NCBI GenBank assembly: GCA_016198325.1
Contig: JACQIV010000028.1
Span: 1 to 40,381 of the forward strand
Direction: 5' to 3'
Source of the DNA: Candidatus Curtissbacteria bacterium
GTDB lineage: Bacteria; Patescibacteriota; Microgenomatia; Curtissbacterales; GWA2-41-24
Length of the DNA: 40,381 nt
Of the stretch, positions 11,140 to 27,737 are shown piece by piece. Both the position numbers and the translations under genes were made by a program. Numbering within the stretch: the first letter of the stretch is position 1; each line of letters opens with the position of its first letter. The notes under the pieces are model-generated. The model saw only the letters and a list, made by a program, of their open reading frames with translations, searched no databases and was not told the origin of the DNA.

Positions 11140-11580
11140 ATGACTCAAATCTCTAAGAAGATTGTGAAAAAGGATTTAGAGACAGAAATAAACGAAATCT
11201 TCTGGTCGACAATTGCAAGATTTAACAAAAAAGACGAGGTCACCCTCTTCTTCTCCGAACTGTTCACATATAACGAGAGAGTAAATCTTGCCAAGAGAAT
11301 TGCAATAGCTATCTTGCTTTCAAAAGGATATGACTGGAGATCCATCAAAGATTTAATAAAAGTGTCCGAGGGAACAATTGCAAAAATTTCCGCGAGGATA
11401 AACTCAGCCGGTTTCAAACTGCTTTTTAAAAAATTAGAAAACGATGCCCGGTGGAGAATGTTTTGGAATGACCTTGTTAAAACTTATTTGATTGCCACTC
11501 ACCCAGATAAATACGCTCGGCTTGGAGACGAAGGCGTTGAAAAAGTTATTCTTAAGAAGAAAAACAACTTGCTGCATTGA
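11140..11580 (+). CDS. TrpR-like / YerC-YecD family DNA-binding protein (paralog 2)
   Basis: 146 aa. The core ERVNLAKRIAIAILLSKGYDWRSIKDLIKVSEGTI is alignable to 2947..3381. Confidence 0.7.
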   Translation: MTQISKKIVKKDLETEINEIFWSTIARFNKKDEVTLFFSELFTYNERVNLAKRIAIAILLSKGYDWRSIKDLIKVSEGTIAKISARINSAGFKLLFKKLENDARWRMFWNDLVKTYLIATHPDKYARLGDEGVEKVILKKKNNLLH

Positions 11581-12077
11581 TTCGAAACAGTAGAGTGGAT
11601 TTAATTGAACAATATTCATATTTCGGATTATTTATAACTCTTCTGATAGAGGAAGCCGGTATCCCCCTGCCAATCCCAGGAGATTTATTTATTGGGACAG
11701 TGTCTGCTCTTCCAAATTCAAACTACTTCTTAATCGTTGTAACTGTTGTTACCGCAACTTTAATAGGTTCGACAATTCTTTTTACCCTCTCAAATAAAGT
11801 CGCGCATCCCCTACTATTAAAATTCGGCCCGAAAATTAAAATCACTCCCGAAAAAATTAAAAAAGTTGAAAAATGGTTCGAAAAATACGGTGGTTTCGCA
11901 ATTGTCATCGGCCGCCTCATCCCCGGTCTGCGAATAGTTACGCCAATTGTCGCCGGTCTTTTCGGAGTTTCATACAGGACATTCTGGGTTTACACCACAC
12001 TCGCCGCTTTCATATGGGCAAATATATATTTTGTAATCGGGAAATTCTTTGGAGAAGTATTGTCCAGGTTTTTCTAA
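11577..12077 (+). CDS. DedA/VTT-domain membrane protein
   Basis: 166 aa. Motifs EEAGIPLPIPGDLF and GR.IPG.R are typical of the DedA family. The TTG start overlaps the upstream TGA. Confidence 0.75.
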   Translation: MIRNSRVDLIEQYSYFGLFITLLIEEAGIPLPIPGDLFIGTVSALPNSNYFLIVVTVVTATLIGSTILFTLSNKVAHPLLLKFGPKIKITPEKIKKVEKWFEKYGGFAIVIGRLIPGLRIVTPIVAGLFGVSYRTFWVYTTLAAFIWANIYFVIGKFFGEVLSRFF

Positions 12078-12136
12078 TCAATTTCCGATTCTGTTCCTCG
12101 ACACCTTTCTGTTGAGTCCCCAGAGTCGGACCTTCT
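12078..12136. repeat. Type-1 59-nt palindromic repeat, degenerate copy (C)
   Basis: Gap-free alignment to copy 19328..19386 gives 45/59 identities. It fills the convergent gap between the DedA stop (12077) and the HtrA stop (12142). Confidence 0.75.
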
Positions 12137-12141
12137 ACCCA

Positions 12142-13308
12142 TTATTCGTTCGGTGCTTCGCCAAGCACCAAATTTAAATCCTTGGTGTTTCCGTCACGCC
12201 AAACCTGGGTTGACACCCGATCCCCAACCTTTTTATCTCTGATTGCTTTGGAGAGTGAATCGTTTTCTGTCAATTTCTTACCGTCAAATTGCGTAATTAT
12301 ATCCCCAACTTTTACTCCCGCTTTGTCTGCAGACGATGCTGAAACAACTTCCCGGACCAATTCTCCTTCCGGGACATCGTTTAAGAGAGCTGTTTCCCTG
12401 GAAATGTGCGTATATCTTACCCCAAGAAACGGCCTGGAAATCTTTCCGCCGGAACTTTGAAAATCGTTAATTAATTGCTTTGCTATATTTATCTTTATCG
12501 CAAAACCGATATTCTGCGCTTCCGCAACCGCGGTATTAATTCCGATAACCTGCCCGCCGGAGTTAACCAACGGCCCACCGGAATTTCCGGGATTAATAGC
12601 AGCGTCCGTCTGAACAAGATCGTCCAGTCTTTCCGCAATTCCGGTAGAAGGATCTACAGGTGAAACTCCACGACCCAATCCCGAAACAACACCTGTAGTA
12701 ACCGTATTTTCAAATCTTCCTAAAGCATTTCCAATCGCTATCACTTTTTGGCCTACCTTCAAGTGTTCGGAGTCGCCAAGTTCCAAGGGTGTTAAATCAC
12801 TAGCATCCACTCTAACAAGCGCAAGATCGTTAAAAGGGTCGCGGTTAACATCCACAATCGGCAGTTTTTTTTCGTCCCCATTGTTTCCCCTTATGATGGC
12901 AATATATTTTGCATCTTCACTCGAAACTACATGTTTGTTGGTTAGTATCAACCCGTCTTTGGAAACAACAAACCCGGTTCCAATTCCGGACTGCTTTTCC
13001 CTGTTTGTCGGCAGACCAAAAAACGGATCGATTAGCTGCTGGTTTTCAACAGCAACGGAAACAACCGACGGCGAAACTTTTTCAACAACGTCGATGACTA
13101 CAGATTCCTCGTCGACAACCCTAGTGGTCTGGACAGTTTCTTTATTTGTTTGAATTTTTTTTTCAAACGGCAGGGATTTATTGAACATGCGGCTTGCTGC
13201 TATCAGTCCGACTACTATCAATGCTACGATAACGAGTACTACGGTATTTCGGGGTTTTGAGCTCTTGGAAATTTTTAACTTATCCGCGCCAGGAACAGTC
13301 AGTGCCAT
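12142..13308 (-). CDS. HtrA/DegP-family trypsin-like serine protease with C-terminal PDZ domain
   Basis: 388 aa with an N-terminal TM anchor. Contains TNKHV (His), D.ALV (Asp) and GNSGGPLVN (Ser), followed by a PDZ-like C-terminus. Confidence 0.9.
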   Translation of the reverse strand: MALTVPGADKLKISKSSKPRNTVVLVIVALIVVGLIAASRMFNKSLPFEKKIQTNKETVQTTRVVDEESVVIDVVEKVSPSVVSVAVENQQLIDPFFGLPTNREKQSGIGTGFVVSKDGLILTNKHVVSSEDAKYIAIIRGNNGDEKKLPIVDVNRDPFNDLALVRVDASDLTPLELGDSEHLKVGQKVIAIGNALGRFENTVTTGVVSGLGRGVSPVDPSTGIAERLDDLVQTDAAINPGNSGGPLVNSGGQVIGINTAVAEAQNIGFAIKINIAKQLINDFQSSGGKISRPFLGVRYTHISRETALLNDVPEGELVREVVSASSADKAGVKVGDIITQFDGKKLTENDSLSKAIRDKKVGDRVSTQVWRDGNTKDLNLVLGEAPNE

Positions 13309-15991: not shown

Positions 15992-17113
15992 CTATACACT
16001 AAACCTAAACTCCACAACCATTCCGTCGCAAACTTCATCCTTTTTCCCTATCGTTAAAACTTTACCTGCAGCCCGCGCGGCTTTCCAACCACCAAGATCA
16101 ACAAATTGCCTCCAGTCAATTACGTCTGCTGCAATAAAACCCCTTTCAAAATCCGTATGGATTACCCCCGCAGCTTGTGGCGCCAAAGATCCGACTTTTA
16201 TTGTCCATGCCCTTACTTCCTTTGGGCCTGCAGTTAAATATGTAGCCAAATTCAACAGTTCGTAACCTTTTTTAATTAGCCTTACAAGCCCCGGTTCCTC
16301 AAGTCCAACTTCTTTGAGGTATTCCACAGCTTCTTCGTCGGAAAGAGCTGAAAGCTCCTCTTCCAGCTTTGCGCTTATGAACAAGGTCCGACCCTGTTCG
16401 TAGACGGCTGACTGTCCGGTCGCCAGGGTCGGACCTTGTGCCTGTCCCGACAGGGCACTTTCATCCGAATTAACTACCACCATATACTTTTTCGCAGAAA
16501 GCAGAGAAAGCTCCTTGATCTTCTCCAAATCATCAGCTTCCATAACATCAGCAAGCCACTTGCCTTCTTCGATAAGTTTCTTTGCTGCCTCCATCGTTTC
16601 AAGAATTTTTCTGCGGGGATCATTTTGAGTAGCCGTTTTAAGTTCCCTGTTGAAACTGTCAATTCTTTTCTCCAAAGTTTCCAAGTCTTTCAATAGTAGC
16701 TCGTCTTTTAATACTTCGAGGTCGTCTTTCGGGCTAGTACCGGTTTGGATAATATCCGGGTTTTTAAAATCACGCACAACAAAAACAATCGCATCTACTT
16801 CCCGGATATGAGACAAAAACTGGTTTCCCAAACCCTCTCCTTTATGTGCACCCTTCACCAAACCGGCTATATCCACAAAGCGGACAATAGCGGGAATTAC
16901 CTTAAACCCCGGAGACAACCCTTCGGATTTTTCTACCGTTTCCTTCAATGCACCAAGCCGTGGGTCCGGAACTTCTACAACCCCTACGTTTGGCTCAATA
17001 GTCGTAAACGGATAATTCTTAGCCTCGGCAACTTGTTTTTTTAAAAGGGCATTAAAAAGCGTCGACTTCCCAACATTCGGTAGTCCAACTATCCCCACGA
17101 AAAGTGATGACAT
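15992..17113 (-). CDS. ychF: Redox-regulated ATPase YchF (Obg-family)
   Basis: 373 aa. Contains GIVGLPNVGKSTLFNAL, DIAGLVKGAH.GEGLGNQFL, LEEPGL and TAGPKEVRAWTI..G..APQAAGVIHTDFE.GFI. Confidence 0.95.
   Translation of the reverse strand: MSSLFVGIVGLPNVGKSTLFNALLKKQVAEAKNYPFTTIEPNVGVVEVPDPRLGALKETVEKSEGLSPGFKVIPAIVRFVDIAGLVKGAHKGEGLGNQFLSHIREVDAIVFVVRDFKNPDIIQTGTSPKDDLEVLKDELLLKDLETLEKRIDSFNRELKTATQNDPRRKILETMEAAKKLIEEGKWLADVMEADDLEKIKELSLLSAKKYMVVVNSDESALSGQAQGPTLATGQSAVYEQGRTLFISAKLEEELSALSDEEAVEYLKEVGLEEPGLVRLIKKGYELLNLATYLTAGPKEVRAWTIKVGSLAPQAAGVIHTDFERGFIAADVIDWRQFVDLGGWKAARAAGKVLTIGKKDEVCDGMVVEFRFSV
16381..16439. repeat. Type-1 59-nt palindromic repeat (copy A) embedded in frame within ychF
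   Basis: 16-bp perfect inverted arms: ACAAGGTCCGACCCTG (16381-16396) and CAGGGTCGGACCTTGT (16424-16439). It is 50/59 identical, without gaps, to the intergenic copy 19328..19386. Confidence 0.85.
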
Positions 17114-17213: not shown

Positions 17214-18074
17214 ATGACGGAACGACAAACTAATGGATTTTCATCGATTGAAGTTGCATCGCCTCCAGTCAGAAAAAGAGGACGTTATGCGATACCTGGA
17301 CCCCATCCTGAAACACTTACCTTTCTTGTTGATGTAACACAAAGTAAATTATACGAAAATCTTGATGCGAGAAGAAGAAATTTAATTGGAATTTACTATG
17401 GTTCACAAGCTACTTTAGAAGACCTTGTCCAGGTAGCCCAAGTTACGTCTAGAAAGAGTGTAAGGCAACTGATTATCTCAGGCATGGAAGAACTCTGGAG
17501 AAATCTCCCTTCCGATTTACAAGAAAAACATCCCAGGGAGAAAGTTATTAAATTCAAAAAAAGGTTCGACCACCGTGCAAAAGAAAGAATGAGCAAATCA
17601 CGCACGTTTTATTGGCAAGATCATGTTCGTAGAGACTCCATAAGCGAAAGATTAAAATCAATAAATGAAGAAAGGAGTCCTTCCAACGAGGCGAGGAGGT
17701 TAATGAGTGCAGCATCTAAAAGGATGTGGCAAAATCCCGAATATAGATCTAGGATAACTGAGGCCACTAAAAGGATGTGGCAAAATCCCGAATATAGAGA
17801 TCGGATGAGCAGAATTGTTCAAAACCGTGTTGTTTCGCCAGAAACAAGAGCTAAGCTTAAAGAAATACTCAGTGAAATATATTCCGCACCGGAAATGCGA
17901 GTTAAGTTAGATGAAGCCCGCGAAATGGCCCGAACACCAGAATCAAGAGATAAGATGAGTAAAGCTCGTAAATCTTTATGGCAAGACCCGGTATTAAGAG
18001 AAATCATGATTGAAGCAATGAGAGAAGGCTGGAAAAGAAAGAAGGCAGCTGTCAAAGGACAATATATGATTTAG
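17214..18074 (+). CDS. Putative DNA-binding protein: N-terminal HTH-like region plus an array of NUMOD3-like short repeats
   Basis: 286 aa. Repeated units of the form S.E.R..MS.A.K..WQNPEYR..M occur at least 5 times. Two units are encoded by identical 32-nt DNA repeats (17716-17747 and 17767-17798). Confidence 0.6.
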   Translation: MTERQTNGFSSIEVASPPVRKRGRYAIPGPHPETLTFLVDVTQSKLYENLDARRRNLIGIYYGSQATLEDLVQVAQVTSRKSVRQLIISGMEELWRNLPSDLQEKHPREKVIKFKKRFDHRAKERMSKSRTFYWQDHVRRDSISERLKSINEERSPSNEARRLMSAASKRMWQNPEYRSRITEATKRMWQNPEYRDRMSRIVQNRVVSPETRAKLKEILSEIYSAPEMRVKLDEAREMARTPESRDKMSKARKSLWQDPVLREIMIEAMREGWKRKKAAVKGQYMI

Positions 18075-19276: not shown

Positions 19277-19327
19277 ACATCTAGTTTATCCCATCCATGC
19301 AAGAATGCGGGATAACGGGCAGTTCAA

Positions 19328-19386
19328 ACAAGGTCCGACCCTGTTCCTCGACGGCCAACTGTCGAGTCCCCGGAGTCGGACCTTGT
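19328..19386. repeat. Type-1 59-nt palindromic repeat (copy B), intergenic
   Basis: Outer arms ACAAGGTCCGAC/GTCGGACCTTGT (12 bp) and inner stem CTCGAC/GTCGAG. It lies between 19390..19725 and the response regulator gene. Confidence 0.85.
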
Positions 19387-19389
19387 ACC

Positions 19390-19725
19390 TTAATTTCTTT
19401 TAACCTTTTTGATATCTTCCTTTAGTTGAGATTTAATCTGTTTTGCCGTATCTGTTATTTTCTCTTCTATTTTTTCAACTTTGGAATTTAAATGCTCCCA
19501 GATTTTTTCGTCCTCCCCTAAAGCCATAAGCTCCAAAAACTTTTTTTTATCAGAATCGGTGAGATGGAAAAGTATCGTATCGATTATTGCCGCGTGTAAA
19601 TTAATATGCGCAAGGTCCATAAGCTCCTCTTTCTCGCTGCCGGATACAGTTGTCAAGCCAAGATCAGTTTCAAGATCCTCCAGGCTAACAAGTTGGCTGT
19701 AAAAATGTTTCGGTCGCGACTTCAT
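19390..19725 (-). CDS. Hypothetical helical protein
   Basis: 111-aa ORF whose start overlaps the upstream gene's stop by 4 nt. No recognisable domain. Confidence 0.5.
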   Translation of the reverse strand: MKSRPKHFYSQLVSLEDLETDLGLTTVSGSEKEELMDLAHINLHAAIIDTILFHLTDSDKKKFLELMALGEDEKIWEHLNSKVEKIEEKITDTAKQIKSQLKEDIKKVKRN

Positions 19726-21158: not shown

Positions 21159-21998
21159 ATGCAGAAGGAATCATCAAAAGTCGGACCTTTTATCAGAACT
21201 GCAGCTGTCTTAGGTGTTCTAACGTCAGGCTTTTTCATACGGGAGAATCCCAATACCTTCGCCCAGGAGGATAAACAGGCTCAAAGCTTCGCACTCGACA
21301 TGGATCCGGACGCAAGTCCGGCAAATACACCCGCATCTCTCGGTTCCCGCGAAATATGTGCACAAATTATTAATAATAATCTCCTCGATGCTGACGAGGA
21401 TGGCATAGACGGAGTTGATTTCGATATTACGGCGCAAAATATCCCCGAAAGTACAAAAATGATTGCTTTTTCCTTTACTCTGGATTATCCGCCGCAAAAT
21501 TTAATAATTACGGAAAAAAATACAAACGGACTTTTAGGCACCGCCCCGGATTACTCAAAGTTTGATGCAAGCCTCTCTCTTCCGGATTCCAGCGGAAGTT
21601 ACACCGTCAGCGTTGCCGATCTTTCTACTCAGGGTGTGTCCGGTTCGGGATTCTTGACTCGCATCAGGGCAAAAGCAACCGATAATACCATCAAGGGTAA
21701 CTTTGCCTTAATCCTTTCGGGAGCTGCTCATATCGACCGTAATAATGGAGTATGGCCGCCAAAAAACTTGGAAAATAGCCAGATTGCCATAAACGAAGAA
21801 TGCGGCGCATCACCGGTAACAACTCCCCCATCCGTCGAAATACAAACTCCGGATGTTCCTACAGAAAAACCGCTCGAATTTCCTTCAACCGGTGGACAGC
21901 CACAAAAAAATGTTTCCCGCCTTGGTTTACTCTCAATCTTTTCCGGTGCGCTAATAATTGTCTCCGGATTAAAAATTATTAGAAAAAACAGAAGTTAG
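21159..21998 (+). CDS. Secreted surface protein with LPXTG-like C-terminal sorting signal (FPSTGG + TM + RKNRS)
   Basis: 279 aa. Signal peptide, then a cohesin-like beta-rich middle region. The C-terminus LEFPSTGGQP...LLSIFSGALIIVSGLKIIRKNRS has the architecture of a sortase substrate. Confidence 0.65.
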   Translation: MQKESSKVGPFIRTAAVLGVLTSGFFIRENPNTFAQEDKQAQSFALDMDPDASPANTPASLGSREICAQIINNNLLDADEDGIDGVDFDITAQNIPESTKMIAFSFTLDYPPQNLIITEKNTNGLLGTAPDYSKFDASLSLPDSSGSYTVSVADLSTQGVSGSGFLTRIRAKATDNTIKGNFALILSGAAHIDRNNGVWPPKNLENSQIAINEECGASPVTTPPSVEIQTPDVPTEKPLEFPSTGGQPQKNVSRLGLLSIFSGALIIVSGLKIIRKNRS

Positions 21999-23266: not shown

Positions 23267-23333
23267 CATTAGAGAGTAAAGCAGTTGAGCTTGTGAAAAG
23301 AAACATACATATTGCAGCGGGTGTAAAACGGTT

Positions 23334-23354
23334 GAACGAGGACTGTCCTCGTTC
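23334..23354. repeat. Type-2 palindrome GAACGAGGAC-T-GTCCTCGTTC (single unit)
   Basis: Perfect 10-bp arms, located 12 nt beyond the stop of the Cas4-like gene. Confidence 0.85.
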
Positions 23355-23365
23355 TAACAAGCTTT

Positions 23366-25551: not shown

Positions 25552-25830
25552 TTAAGCCTCAGACGTTAAGGCGTAGTTTTGGAAAATGGTGCTGTACATA
25601 AGAGAATCTTCTGCAATATCCTTTTTATTTTTTTGAAAAAGAATTCTTTTTGTATTTAATATGGACTTTTGAATATAAACCGGCAGTTTATTTTTTTTGA
25701 CTTCCTCAATTCTTTTTAATGCTTCTTCCCTGAATCTTTCAGCAGTTTTGTCCGACCCATTGCGAAAAGCAAGCGCTACTCTTTTGAGGTCCATTGACAA
25801 GGATGATATCGTTATTTGTTCTTCACTCAT
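25552..25830 (-). CDS. Hypothetical small helical protein
   Basis: 92 aa. Its start overlaps the stop of the upstream gene by 4 nt (ATGA). Confidence 0.5.
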   Translation of the reverse strand: MSEEQITISSLSMDLKRVALAFRNGSDKTAERFREEALKRIEEVKKNKLPVYIQKSILNTKRILFQKNKKDIAEDSLMYSTIFQNYALTSEA

Positions 25831-26165
25831 ATTATTTCTTTAAAAAAATATCTTGTAAGCCTCTCGTACTCTTTTTTTATTTTATCACTTTGTATTTCAT
25901 TACTTGTGTTGTTATCATTAGGCCTAATATTGATAAACGAATTATAGTCAATTATTTTCGTTTCCAAATCGATTCCCCCACCCCATAAATCTGACTGATT
26001 TGAGTTTTGTTTAAGTAATAATTGTTTTGATTCAAAATGCCTGTTTGCACCAGCCGAACAAATCTTTTTTTTTATATCAATTACAGTCTTGATATAACTT
26101 TGGAATTCTTTCTGAAGTTTTTTTATTTCTTCTTTGGTATAGGGAGTTTCTTTGGCAATTATCAT
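25827..26165 (-). CDS. Small uncharacterised protein resembling the family I recall as DUF5674
   Basis: Taking the ATG at 26165 gives MIIAKETPYTKEEIKKL...VIDIKKKICSAGANRHFESKQLLL..NSNQSDLWGGGIDLE...IDYNSFINIRPNDNNTS.EI.SD.I. The GG..H...E..LL..GS.Q.D.WG / INIRP pattern is recalled from memory. The track's longer TTG start at 26273 would run into the repeat. Confidence 0.55.
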   Translation of the reverse strand: MIIAKETPYTKEEIKKLQKEFQSYIKTVIDIKKKICSAGANRHFESKQLLLKQNSNQSDLWGGGIDLETKIIDYNSFINIRPNDNNTSNEIQSDKIKKEYERLTRYFFKEII

Positions 26166-26269
26166 TCCAAGATAATAGCACCAGGATAAGGACTTCGGCA
26201 AAAATAGTGGGTAATTCGTAGTTGGTAGCTTGTAGCCCTTTACTTCAAAAAAAGTCTTGGACACTTTCA

Positions 26270-26353
26270 ACAAGGTCCGACCATGTACAACTAACGAGGA
26301 CTGTCCTCTTCAAGAAGAGTCGTGCCCCTGGTCTAAATGAGGACAGTCCTCGT
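26270..26353. repeat. Chimeric repeat: type-1 left arm (26270-26288) abutting a 60-nt type-2 composite element (26294-26353)
   Basis: ACAAGGTCCGACC (the type-1 arm) is followed by ACGAGGACTGTCCTC...GAGGACAGTCCTCGT. The composite matches 27681..27728 except for a 12-nt indel (GTGCCCCTGGTC) and 2 substitutions. Confidence 0.8.
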
Positions 26354-26382
26354 TCCGTCGTTGTTTTCCTTATTGCCAATCC

Positions 26383-26757: not shown

Positions 26758-26768
26758 GTTGAAGCCCT

Positions 26769-26789
26769 AAACGAGGACAGTCCTCGTTT
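26769..26789. terminator. Type-2 palindrome AAACGAGGAC-A-GTCCTCGTTT acting as a likely bidirectional intrinsic terminator
   Basis: Perfect 10-bp arms flanked by A/T runs on both sides, sitting between the convergent genes 26383..26757 (+) and 26812..27039 (-). Confidence 0.65.
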
Positions 26790-26811
26790 TACTCGTTTCT
26801 AACCTCTTTAA

Positions 26812-27633: not shown

Positions 27634-27680
27634 AAGAGGGAATGATAACAGTGTTGAGGCTAAATGTAAAGGGACACCCA

Positions 27681-27728
27681 ACGAGGACTGTCCTCTTCAA
27701 GAACAGTCTAAACGAGGACAGTCCTCGT
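27681..27728. repeat. Type-2 composite palindromic element (48 nt): ACGAGGACTGTCCTC...ACGAGGACAGTCCTCGT
   Basis: The two terminal units are reverse complements of each other, and each unit is itself palindromic. It lies between 27738..28211 and 27043..27633. Confidence 0.85.
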
Positions 27729-27737
27729 ACCACTCAA

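What the first reader, a model, noticed from the sequence alone, without database searches (positions are those of the whole stretch)
16381..16439. A 59-nt nested-palindrome repeat lies in frame inside the conserved ychF gene
The segment has perfect 16-bp inverted arms (ACAAGGTCCGACCCTG / CAGGGTCGGACCTTGT). It aligns without gaps to the intergenic copy at 19328-19386 (50/59 identical) and to the copy at 12078-12136. In ychF it is translated as ...GQAQGPTLATGQSAVYEQGRTLF..., with the two arms giving QGPTL and QGRTL. It falls in the variable region between the VNxDE strand and the conserved ISAK.E.EL helix. Compared with E. coli YchF as I remember it, the element appears to replace the native sequence there rather than add length. 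This recalls the Rickettsia palindromic elements, which are known to insert in frame into protein genes. I am not aware of this having been described for this kind of genome.
Basis: partly seen in the sequence, partly recalled or inferred. Interest (0 to 1): 0.7.

Follow-up and report, generated by a model that had tools for sequence, protein, structure and literature searches.

The report
Mobile palindromic repeat inside ychF gene
The 59-base palindrome inside the ychF gene is a real copy of a small hairpin repeat found across the ultra-small Patescibacteria (CPR) bacteria, which sits next to its own transposase-like gene in other CPR genomes and often lies in frame inside essential genes, adding a floppy surface loop.

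Summary
Window 16381-16439 has perfect 16-nt inverted arms and is 50/59 identical to the intergenic copy at 19328-19386. It is read in frame as codons 225-245 of YchF and is predicted to be a disordered loop.

It is not a recent one-off insertion. All six sequenced orthologs with at least about 75% identity carry a palindrome at the same site. Their arms covary (7 of 15 pairs changed on both sides). More distant relatives have none. Only the 27-nt centre is specific to the window lineage, and it matches the window's intergenic copies.

The arms belong to a repeat unit, CARGGTCSGACCYTG, usually found as inverted doublets. A collection scan found it in at least 119 genome stretches, 84 of them named Patescibacteria of many classes. 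About half of the canonical doublets lie in open frames inside real genes (GatA, GatB, GlyRS, LigA, TsaD, UvrB and others).

In 11 loci the same units flank, on both sides, an IS200-like Y1 (HUH) transposase gene. This is the REP/REPIN-RAYT arrangement.

Best reading: a REPIN-like element of a CPR-wide REP/RAYT family, tolerated in a YchF loop. In-frame REPs are known in other phyla. I found no description of them for CPR.

The parts
15992..17113 (-). ychF gene (373 aa), the host of the element
   Evidence: ORF, translation. Pfam MMR_HSR1 and YchF-GTPase_C. Aligns end to end with solved YchF structures, E = 1e-94.
16381..16439 (.). REPIN-like doublet read in frame as YchF codons 225-245 (AQGPTLATGQSAVYEQGRTLF)
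   Evidence: The AlphaFold2 model shows coil at residues 217-242, with pLDDT below 50 at 225-237.
16381..16396 (.). First REP unit (arm), ACAAGGTCCGACCCTG. In ychF (minus strand) its complement is read as QGRTL.
   Evidence: Matches the family consensus CARGGTCSGACCYTG with 0 mismatches. The consensus comes from 441 units.
16397..16423. 27-nt centre (spacer) with a weak inner hairpin. It is specific to the window lineage in ychF and matches the centre of copy 19328 at 20 of 27 positions by my count.
   Evidence: Orthologs have 9-12 nt here instead. The tree places the window inside the clade, so the centre is derived. A leftover GACAGG lies just upstream in the gene.
16424..16439 (.). Second REP unit (arm), CAGGGTCGGACCTTGT. 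In ychF its complement is read as QGPTL.
19328..19386 (.). Intergenic copy, 50/59 identical to the ychF copy, with a well-formed inner hairpin CTCGACGG/CTGTCGAG. It lies just after the stop codon of ORF 19390-19725 (-).
   Evidence: It is part of an insertion of roughly 80 nt, by my count, relative to ortholog locus L002, where the two genes overlap. The upstream gene gained a new stop codon.
12078..12136 (.). Degenerate copy (42/59) that fills the gap between the stops of two convergent genes, 11577-12077 (+) and 12142-13308 (-)
   Evidence: The same gap holds different filler in L001 and almost nothing in L003.
26270..26286 (.). Single REP unit, ACAAGGTCCGACCATGT, at the start of ORF 25827-26273 (-), followed by hairpins of a second family
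21177..21189 (.). Possible single unit with one mismatch (AAAGTCGGACCTT), read as KVGPF near the N-terminus of ORF 21159-21998 (+). This assignment is tentative.
   Evidence: My arithmetic gives about 0.05 such matches expected in the window.

Best explanation
The segment is a REPIN-like doublet. It consists of two inverted REP units built on the core GGTC(C/G)GACC (consensus CARGGTCSGACCYTG) around a 27-nt spacer. It belongs to a repeat family spread through Patescibacteria (CPR). In other CPR genomes the same units flank an IS200-like Y1 (HUH) tyrosine transposase gene, as REPs flank RAYT genes.

Shown:
- The repeat family exists in the window and far beyond it.
- The ychF copy is in frame and encodes a low-confidence loop between the G4 strand and the SAK strand.
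- A palindrome has occupied this site since the common ancestor of the P0001-P0007 clade.
- Its two arms have stayed complementary through changes on both sides.
- The window's centre matches the window's own intergenic copies.

Inferred:
- Copies are made by the RAYT-like enzyme acting on the hairpin in single-stranded DNA.
- A copy landed in the dispensable YchF loop and was tolerated. The unit has no stop codon in any of the six frames, and it encodes G/P/S/T/R/D-rich peptides.
- Arm complementarity is kept by selection on the hairpin, by hairpin-templated repair, or by conversion or re-insertion from the genome's REPIN pool.
- The window lineage overwrote the old short doublet with its current long form.
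For: - Family in the window.
- Mobility: copy 19328 is an insertion relative to L002, and the gap at 12078 differs among three genomes.
- Ancestry at the ychF site: perfect 15-nt arms with 9-nt centres in L001, L002 and L003. Decaying arms in L005 (13/15) and L006 (12/15). One arm-like unit in the sister L007. Nothing in more distant YchF.
- Covariation: 95.6% of cells paired, 7 of 15 pairs changed on both sides, 0 of 500 shuffles reach the observed value, and pairing collapses when partners are slid by 1-3 columns.
- Spread in CPR: the genome scan returned at least 119 stretches. Of these, 84 are named as CPR lineages, 8 are unnamed, and 27 are other phyla. I estimated about 34 chance hits.
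- Doublets: inverted doublets dominate, with centre bases CG or GC in 118 cases, CC in 4, and 33 singles.
- Second scan: the CCCTG variant gave 63 metagenome loci.
- In-frame copies: 33 of 64 canonical doublets lie in long open frames, against 841 of 1280 random positions. Pfam confirmed the hosts GatA, GatB, GlyRS, LigA, TsaD, a class I aaRS, a UvrD-like helicase, UvrB and a glycosyltransferase. GatB shows a net +7 aa against chain 3al0_B.
- Transposase link: a 218-aa ORF passes the Pfam Y1_Tnp cutoff (32.9 bits, cutoff 23). Its best NCBIfam hit is REP_Tyr_transpos. It carries CLMPNHFHL and YIHLNP motifs. Repeat cores lie within 210 nt on both sides of this gene in 11 loci.
- Transposase family: 6680 homologs, and every named one among the 120 listed is CPR.
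- Direct link to ychF: the first unit in L001 ychF, GACAGGGTCCGACCCTGTCA, matches 20 of 21 bases of the unit that flanks the transposase gene in L186.
- Structure: residues 225-237 have pLDDT below 50, and 217-242 are coil.
Against: - No RAYT-like gene lies in the 40-kb window or in the roughly 60 kb of close-relative loci. So the link for this particular genome rests on sequence identity of the units.
- The RAYT-like protein scores 33 bits against the NCBIfam REP_Tyr_transpos equivalog, whose cutoff is 80.
- The units lack the GTAG or CGTC tag of described REPs.
- The CTCTCC/GGAGAG arm variant of L002 and L003 was seen only in ychF in the little flanking DNA available. It may therefore have evolved in place.
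- No experiment shows transposition, and none shows that the peptide is made.
Confidence: 0.75

Rival explanations
1. The hairpin is a functional nucleic-acid element of ychF itself, for example an mRNA structure that tunes translation or decay. On this reading it is kept by selection, and its likeness to the intergenic repeats is secondary.
For: Strong arm covariation across orthologs in a part of the protein that appears unconstrained. The site has been held throughout the clade.
Against: The same unit occurs in many unrelated genes and in intergenic DNA across CPR. Among genic copies, the sense strand is the more stable fold in 13 cases and the antisense in 20, so there is no sign of selection at the mRNA level. 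CPR YchF outside the clade lacks the hairpin. No Rfam family matches. Arms are decaying in L005 and L006.
Confidence: 0.07
2. The palindrome arose in place, by inverted duplication of native codons (QGxTL before ISAK). The intergenic copies would then be unrelated to it or derived from it.
For: The second arm lies where relatives have (E/Q)G-x-x-(I/L), for example QGEFLKISAK in P0091 and EQGQALLISAK in P0008. Each arm is itself nearly palindromic, so the two arms are also near-direct repeats.
Against: The arms equal a consensus found in hundreds of copies in distant CPR classes and next to RAYT-like genes. The 27-nt centre matches the intergenic copies.
Confidence: 0.05
3. The unit is chiefly a protein-binding or DNA-uptake signal, like the USS and DUS of competent bacteria. 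It would spread by recombination and drive, not by transposition.
For: The core is conserved across a whole superphylum, which is unusual for REPs. USS also occur inside genes (my own knowledge). Saccharibacteria are naturally competent (abstract of PMC10187176, listed).
Against: Density is low, about one unit per 8 kb in the window, against roughly one per kb for USS and DUS (my own knowledge). Units come almost always as inverted doublets with complementary centre bases. Copies are insertions that add residues. The units flank a transposase-like gene.
Confidence: 0.08
4. It is a classic MITE: a cut-down insertion sequence with terminal inverted repeats, moved by a DDE transposase and leaving target-site duplications.
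For: It has inverted ends and dispersed copies.
Against: No flanking direct repeat in 55 of 74 copies, and 1-2 nt at most in another 15. About half the copies sit inside longer, copy-specific hairpins. The linked gene is a Y1/HUH type, not a DDE type.
Confidence: 0.03

Closest known systems
REP / REPIN sequences with RAYT (REP-associated tyrosine transposase), as in E. coli and Pseudomonas (PMC3116915, PMC3479197, PMC3337134; listed)
   Same: Short G+C-rich palindromic units. They occur mostly as inverted doublets that fold into one long hairpin. There are many copies per genome. They flank a Y1/HUH transposase gene on both sides. Intergenic copies sit just after stop codons and between convergent genes.
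   Different: There is no GTAG tag. The units are very small, 15 nt. The core is shared across many CPR classes, whereas REPs are described as species-specific (PMC6006769). About half the doublets lie inside coding frames. The enzyme is only a distant relative of the curated RAYT model (33 bits, cutoff 80).
Intragenic GTAG- and CGTC-tagged REPs (Di Nocera et al. 2013, PMC3733652), for example in Opitutus terrae and Rickettsia conorii
   Same: REP singles and dimers lie in frame in genes of known function, uvrA and uvrB among them. They encode about 20-30 extra residues, and some genes carry two insertions. LigA and TsaD here also carry two.
   Different: The sequence family and the host phylum differ. 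No tag was found here. As that paper describes it, intragenic copies are a minority, with most REPs intergenic.
Rickettsia palindromic elements (RPE)
   Same: Palindromic repeats inserted in frame in unrelated housekeeping genes of a reduced genome. Nearly half of the copies are in ORFs (PMC10969869).
   Different: RPEs are about 150 bp, against 36-64 nt here. The host lineage differs. Per PMC3733652, CGTC-type repeats, which include some RPEs, lack a dedicated transposase.
DNA uptake sequences (USS/DUS)
   Same: A short conserved motif, often in inverted pairs, that also occurs inside genes.
   Different: See the third rival explanation: lower density, insertion character, and flanking of a transposase-like gene.

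Membership tests
REP/REPIN-RAYT system | A short palindromic unit repeated many times in the genome | tested here: met
   The window has 6 units within 2 mismatches, against 0.10 expected. The fetched loci hold 441 exact cores, with several copies per contig in L154, L186 and L120. The whole genome of the window organism was not available.
REP/REPIN-RAYT system | Units paired in inverted orientation across a spacer, forming one long hairpin (REPIN) | tested here: met
   Inverted pairs with centre bases CG or GC number 118, against 4 CC pairs and 33 singles. The window copies fold with z = -5.7 to -6.2. Compensatory changes between the arms are seen in ychF.
REP/REPIN-RAYT system | A Y1/HUH transposase gene (RAYT) flanked by the repeat units | tested here: met
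   Met in other CPR genomes: 11 loci have cores within 210 nt on both sides of the gene, and the gene passes the Pfam Y1_Tnp cutoff (32.9 bits, cutoff 23). No such gene lies in the window or in the close-relative loci, so the feature is untested for this genome.
REP/REPIN-RAYT system | The enzyme meets the curated RAYT model (NCBIfam NF047646 equivalog) | tested here: not met
   33 bits against a cutoff of 80. It is the only NCBIfam hit but falls below the cutoff. No solved relative was found by sequence.
REP/REPIN-RAYT system | A conserved GTAG (or CGTC) tetranucleotide at the foot of the hairpin | tested here: not met
   In 441 oriented units, each tag occurs in only 5-13 flanks. The conserved positions give CARGGTCCGACCYTG only.
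REP/REPIN-RAYT system | Extragenic location | tested here: not met
   33 of 64 canonical doublets lie in long open frames, against 66% of random positions. Ten hosts were confirmed by Pfam.
REP/REPIN-RAYT system | The enzyme binds and cleaves the REP hairpin in single-stranded DNA | not testable with these tools
   This needs biochemistry.
Rickettsia palindromic elements | Membership of an RPE sequence family (about 100-150 bp, in Rickettsia) | tested here: not met
   The elements here are 36-64 nt and occur in Patescibacteria. RPE length is taken from PMC10969869. I made no direct alignment to RPE consensus sequences.
Rickettsia palindromic elements | In-frame insertion into unrelated conserved genes, tolerated as a surface peptide | tested here: met
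   This is a likeness in behaviour, not family membership.
MITE (derived from a DDE insertion sequence) | Terminal inverted repeats together with target-site duplications | tested here: not met
   No flanking direct repeat in 55 of 74 copies.

The most novel reading that the evidence does not exclude
The repeat and its RAYT-like enzyme may be a domesticated, vertically inherited system common to Patescibacteria, not a mere parasite. If so, the hairpins, including those kept inside essential genes, would serve a cellular purpose. Candidate purposes are marking DNA for recombination or uptake, or control of replication or transcripts. That would explain why the 9-15-nt core is the same across classes that diverged long ago, and why arms stay paired in a coding loop.
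Probability: 0.15. Interest if true: 0.85.

Novelty: new member of a known kind. Interest (0 to 1): 0.62.

Why it matters
Patescibacteria have genomes of about 1 Mb and are usually described as streamlined. This work points to a hairpin repeat family, with a linked transposase-like gene, that is spread across the group. It sits in coding frames almost as often as chance placement would put it (52% against 66%).

If that holds, several things follow:
- It would account for part of the odd lineage-specific insertions seen in CPR housekeeping proteins.
- It affects gene calling, alignment trimming and phylogenies built from those proteins.
- It gives a natural series of tolerated loop insertions in essential enzymes.
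- A unit conserved across a whole superphylum is unusual for REPs, and it provides a clear sequence target for testing what RAYT-like enzymes do.

Tried and rejected
- **Rfam.** A search at gathering threshold over the window found only a tRNA.
- **Sequence strings in papers.** Searching for the repeat sequence returned only unrelated primer matches.
- **Literature on CPR.** Searches combining palindromic, in-frame, MITE, RAYT or REPIN terms with CPR names found nothing relevant.
- **First metagenome scan.** The long-form pattern with the exact 17-nt left end found nothing. The second scan, with the CCCTG variant arms, worked.
- **mRNA structure.** I tested for a sense-strand folding advantage and found none (13 against 20).
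- **Terminator role.** The consensus scan does not pick the elements, because they lack T-tracts. The second hairpin family looks more terminator-like.
- **Target-site duplications.** None were found.
- **GTAG or CGTC tags.** None were found.
- **RAYT-like gene nearby.** No hit in the window or in close-relative loci.
- **Solved structure for the RAYT-like protein.** No match by sequence.
- **ORFs beside the window copies.** Pfam gave nothing informative.
- **Not attempted.** I did not do a structure search (Foldseek) of the YchF model, because the loop has low confidence.

Full report
**1. The observation**

Window 16381-16439 carries perfect 16-nt inverted arms, ACAAGGTCCGACCCTG and CAGGGTCGGACCTTGT, around a 27-nt centre. 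Within 3 mismatches the arm has 9 matches in the window, against 0.20 expected from shuffles. The repeat finder groups 16380-16443 with 19327-19390 (84% identity) and 12077-12140 (70%). The element is 63% G+C in a 41% G+C window.

The segment lies in the minus-strand ORF 15992-17113. This ORF is YchF: it has Pfam MMR_HSR1 and YchF-GTPase_C, and it aligns end to end with the solved YchF structures 2dby and 1jal at E about 1e-94. The element is read as AQGPTLATGQSAVYEQGRTLF, codons 225-245, between VVVNSDE and ISAKLEEE. As single-stranded DNA both strands fold far better than shuffles (z = -6.2 and -5.7).

**2. The ychF site in relatives**

The closest YchF proteins, P0002-P0008, are 70-81% identical. 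Named relatives are Candidatus Curtissbacteria and other Patescibacteria. I fetched the DNA of six orthologs and read the site codon by codon.

| Locus | Arms at the site | Centre | Peptide |
|---|---|---|---|
| L001 | CAGGGTCCGACCCTG / CAGGGTCGGACCCTG, perfect | 9 nt | QGPTL SSL QGRTL |
| L002, L003 | CAAGGTCTCTCCTTG / CAAGGAGAGACCTTG, perfect | 9 nt | QGLSL SG(L/F) QGETL |
| L005 | 13 of 15 paired | 12 nt | |
| L006 | 12 of 15 paired, plus a wobble | 9 nt | |
| L007 (70% identity) | a single arm-like CAAGGACAGGCCTTG | none | |

More distant CPR YchF proteins read NSDExDLxKExPIxGAIRISAKLE and show no trace of a palindrome.

A neighbour-joining tree built without the loop puts the window inside the clade P0001-P0007, with P0008 as sister. 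So a short doublet is ancestral to the clade, and the 27-nt centre is a change in the window lineage. The window also keeps GACAGG just upstream, as in L001, followed by two extra codons and then the new unit. This looks like an overwrite of the old copy. The span from NSDE to AKLE is 24 aa in element-free relatives, 29 aa in the nearest orthologs and 37 aa in the window.

On an alignment of the six orthologs (A2), the 15 arm pairs are 95.6% paired. Seven pairs show changes on both sides. None of 500 shuffles reaches the observed values, and pairing drops to 28-48% when the partners are slid by 1-3 columns.

**3. The other copies in the window behave as insertions**

Copy 19328 lies in a 113-nt gap between two genes. 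In L002 those genes overlap by 4 nt. In the window the upstream gene ends early at a new stop codon just before the element. Copy 12078 fills the gap between two convergent stop codons exactly. L001 has different G+C-rich filler in that gap, and L003 has almost nothing. A single unit lies at 26270. A one-mismatch unit at 21177-21189 is read as KVGPF in ORF 21159-21998.

**4. The family outside the window**

I scanned one genome per species with AAGGTCCGAC, a gap of 12-42 nt, then GTCGGACCTT. By record title, 84 are Patescibacteria lineages: Kaiser-, Lloyd-, Zambryskii-, Yonath-, Nealson-, Moran-, Falkow-, Nomura-, Adler- and Yanofskybacteria, Paceibacterota, Saccharibacteria, and the Microgenomates groups Woese-, Collier- and Beckwithbacteria. 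Eight are unnamed "bacterium" records and 27 are other phyla. My own estimate of chance matches is about 34. Most non-CPR hits lack the fuller motif.

The usual form is AAGGTCCGACCTT, 8-14 nt, then AAGGTCGGACCTT. Over 441 oriented units the consensus is CARGGTCCGACCYTG. Adjacent units are almost always inverted: 118 pairs have centre bases CG or GC, 4 have CC, and 33 units are single. The CG class is inflated by the way the loci were chosen. In 35 of 74 copies the flanks extend the hairpin by 3 or more copy-specific base pairs.

A second scan, of metagenome contigs, used the CCCTG/CAGGG variant seen in the window and in L001. It gave 63 loci with 68 copies, some contigs carrying 3-5 identical copies.

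**5. In-frame copies are common**

Of 123 hits, 48 lie in a stop-free frame with at least 50 codons on each side. Among canonical doublets away from locus ends the figure is 33 of 64. Random positions in the same loci score 841 of 1280. So the doublets are only mildly depleted from coding DNA.

The peptides depend on the reading frame: RSDL, GPT(L/F), GRT(L/F), KVRP or KVGP. Pfam confirmed ten hosts, with the domain match running across the element:
- GatA
- GatB
- GlyRS
- LigA (two copies)
- TsaD (two copies)
- a class I aminoacyl-tRNA synthetase
- a UvrD-like helicase-nuclease
- UvrB
- a TPR membrane protein
- a glycosyltransferase

Against Thermotoga GatB (chain 3al0_B) the element is a net 7-residue insertion in a loop. 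The same sites recur in related genomes: GatA in L009, L025, L066 and L116; GatB in L014 and L018; GlyRS in L075 and L113.

**6. A linked transposase-like gene**

In L154, L186 and L129 two identical doublets bracket a 218-aa ORF. The ORF passes the Pfam Y1_Tnp (IS200-like) cutoff at 32.9 bits against 23. Its only NCBIfam hit is REP_Tyr_transpos, at 33 bits, below the equivalog cutoff of 80. It carries a CLMPNHFHL (HUH) motif and a YIHLNP motif.

A tblastn search of all fetched loci found relatives in 16 loci. In 11 of them repeat cores lie within 210 nt on both sides of the gene. The protein family has 6680 members at E of 1e-10 or better, and every named member among the 120 listed is CPR.

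The first unit in L001 ychF, GACAGGGTCCGACCCTGTCA, matches 20 of 21 bases of the unit that flanks the gene in L186. No such gene lies in the window or in the close-relative loci.

**7. Structure**

An AlphaFold2 model built from 41 aligned sequences has mean pLDDT 78. Residues 217-242 are coil, with pLDDT below 50 at 225-237. This stretch lies between strand 209-216 and strand 243-246. The element therefore encodes a loop of low predicted order, and the last residues of its second arm run into the SAK strand.

**8. How it most likely works**

The anatomy matches REP/REPIN elements moved by a RAYT-type enzyme. The matching features are small hairpin units, inverted doublets, and units flanking a Y1 transposase gene. 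Transposition itself is inferred, not shown.

The unit has no stop codon in any of the six frames (my own reading of the consensus). It codes for small, polar, turn-forming residues. A copy landing in a dispensable loop can therefore be carried.

Paired arms could persist through selection on the hairpin, through hairpin-templated repair, or through conversion or re-insertion from the genome's pool. Three observations favour exchange with the pool:
- The window's centre matches its intergenic copies.
- GACAGG is left over upstream of the new unit.
- Arm types do not follow the YchF tree: P0003 groups with P0001 and P0002 but shares arms with P0005 and P0007.

None of these is decisive, because the tree's inner branches are short.

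**9. Comparison with what is known**

In-frame REPs are already described for GTAG- and CGTC-tagged families, notably in Opitutus terrae and Rickettsia conorii, including in uvrA and uvrB (PMC3733652). RPEs are the classic case of frequent in-frame insertion (PMC10969869).

This family differs in four ways:
- It has no tag.
- Its units are very small.
- Its core is shared across many CPR classes, whereas REPs are described as species-specific (PMC6006769).
- A large share of its copies lie in coding frames.

I found no paper that links REP, REPIN, RAYT or palindromic elements with CPR. The library does not cover all journals. I file it as a new member of a known kind, with unusual spread and unusual tolerance inside genes.

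**10. Limits**

- The loci were chosen by the pattern, so counts of pairs and cores are inflated by ascertainment.
- The "genic" calls rest on open frames. Ten of them have Pfam support.
- Lineage names are the record titles of metagenome-assembled genomes.
- The link between the window's own genome and a RAYT-like gene is indirect.

Noticed in passing
window 23332-23359, 26287-26321, 26333-26360, 26767-26794, 27674-27735: A second hairpin family (AACGAGGACAGTCCTCGTT and its complement) sits between gene ends. Some copies are followed by short T-runs, so they look like shared, two-way terminators. Two copies lie next to the single REP unit at 26270.
   Followed up: partly
window 17214-18074 (+), with a 51-nt tandem repeat at 17703-17804: A 286-aa ORF lies between ychF and the cupredoxin-like gene. 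In L002 those two genes are 117 nt apart and this ORF is absent. It contains repeated S..KRMWQNPEYR motifs and has no significant Pfam match. It may be an inserted gene.
   Followed up: partly
L186 2931, L154 6877, L129 1386, L017 1031, L092 1239, L104 1714, L063 1740, L080 3027: The RAYT-like genes themselves carry one repeat unit in frame, read as DRVRPC, EGRTF, KGRTF or QGRTL where I read the translation. It sits at a similar position ahead of the HUH motif. This could be a self-recognition or control site.
   Followed up: no
Proteins P0032, P0033, P0055, P0076, P0090, P0100, P0105, P0110, P0119 (alignment A1): Other CPR YchF proteins carry different odd, low-complexity insertions at the same loop and at two other loops. 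Examples are ...NENPKSETRNPKQILNTNDP..., ...SFATSFAKATEVKKA... and ...AFAKASVGQAGFAKA.... This suggests further repeat families inserted in frame.
   Followed up: no
L001 6743-6790: The gap between the protease gene and the VTT-domain gene holds a different G+C-rich filler (CCTTCGACTTCGCTCAGGACAAG) at the spot where the window has its degenerate REP copy.
   Followed up: no
L035, L040, L107, L059, L065: A 62-nt nested form has the same outer ends and a conserved inner hairpin (…GAAACCTTTTGCAAAAGGTTTC…). It is found in three contigs of one Patescibacteria MAG, one further metagenome-assembled contig and one Saccharibacteria MAG. Its layout is like the window's long form, but the centre is different.
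   Followed up: no
L001 32-1048: A reverse-transcriptase (RVT_1) gene lies about 650 nt upstream of ychF in the closest relative. It is absent from the window at that position.
   Followed up: no
L050, L061, L071, L074: Canonical or variant units occur on contigs binned as Bdellovibrionales, Bacteroides, Pseudomonadales and Burkholderiales. These could be mis-binned CPR contigs or real transfers.
   Followed up: no
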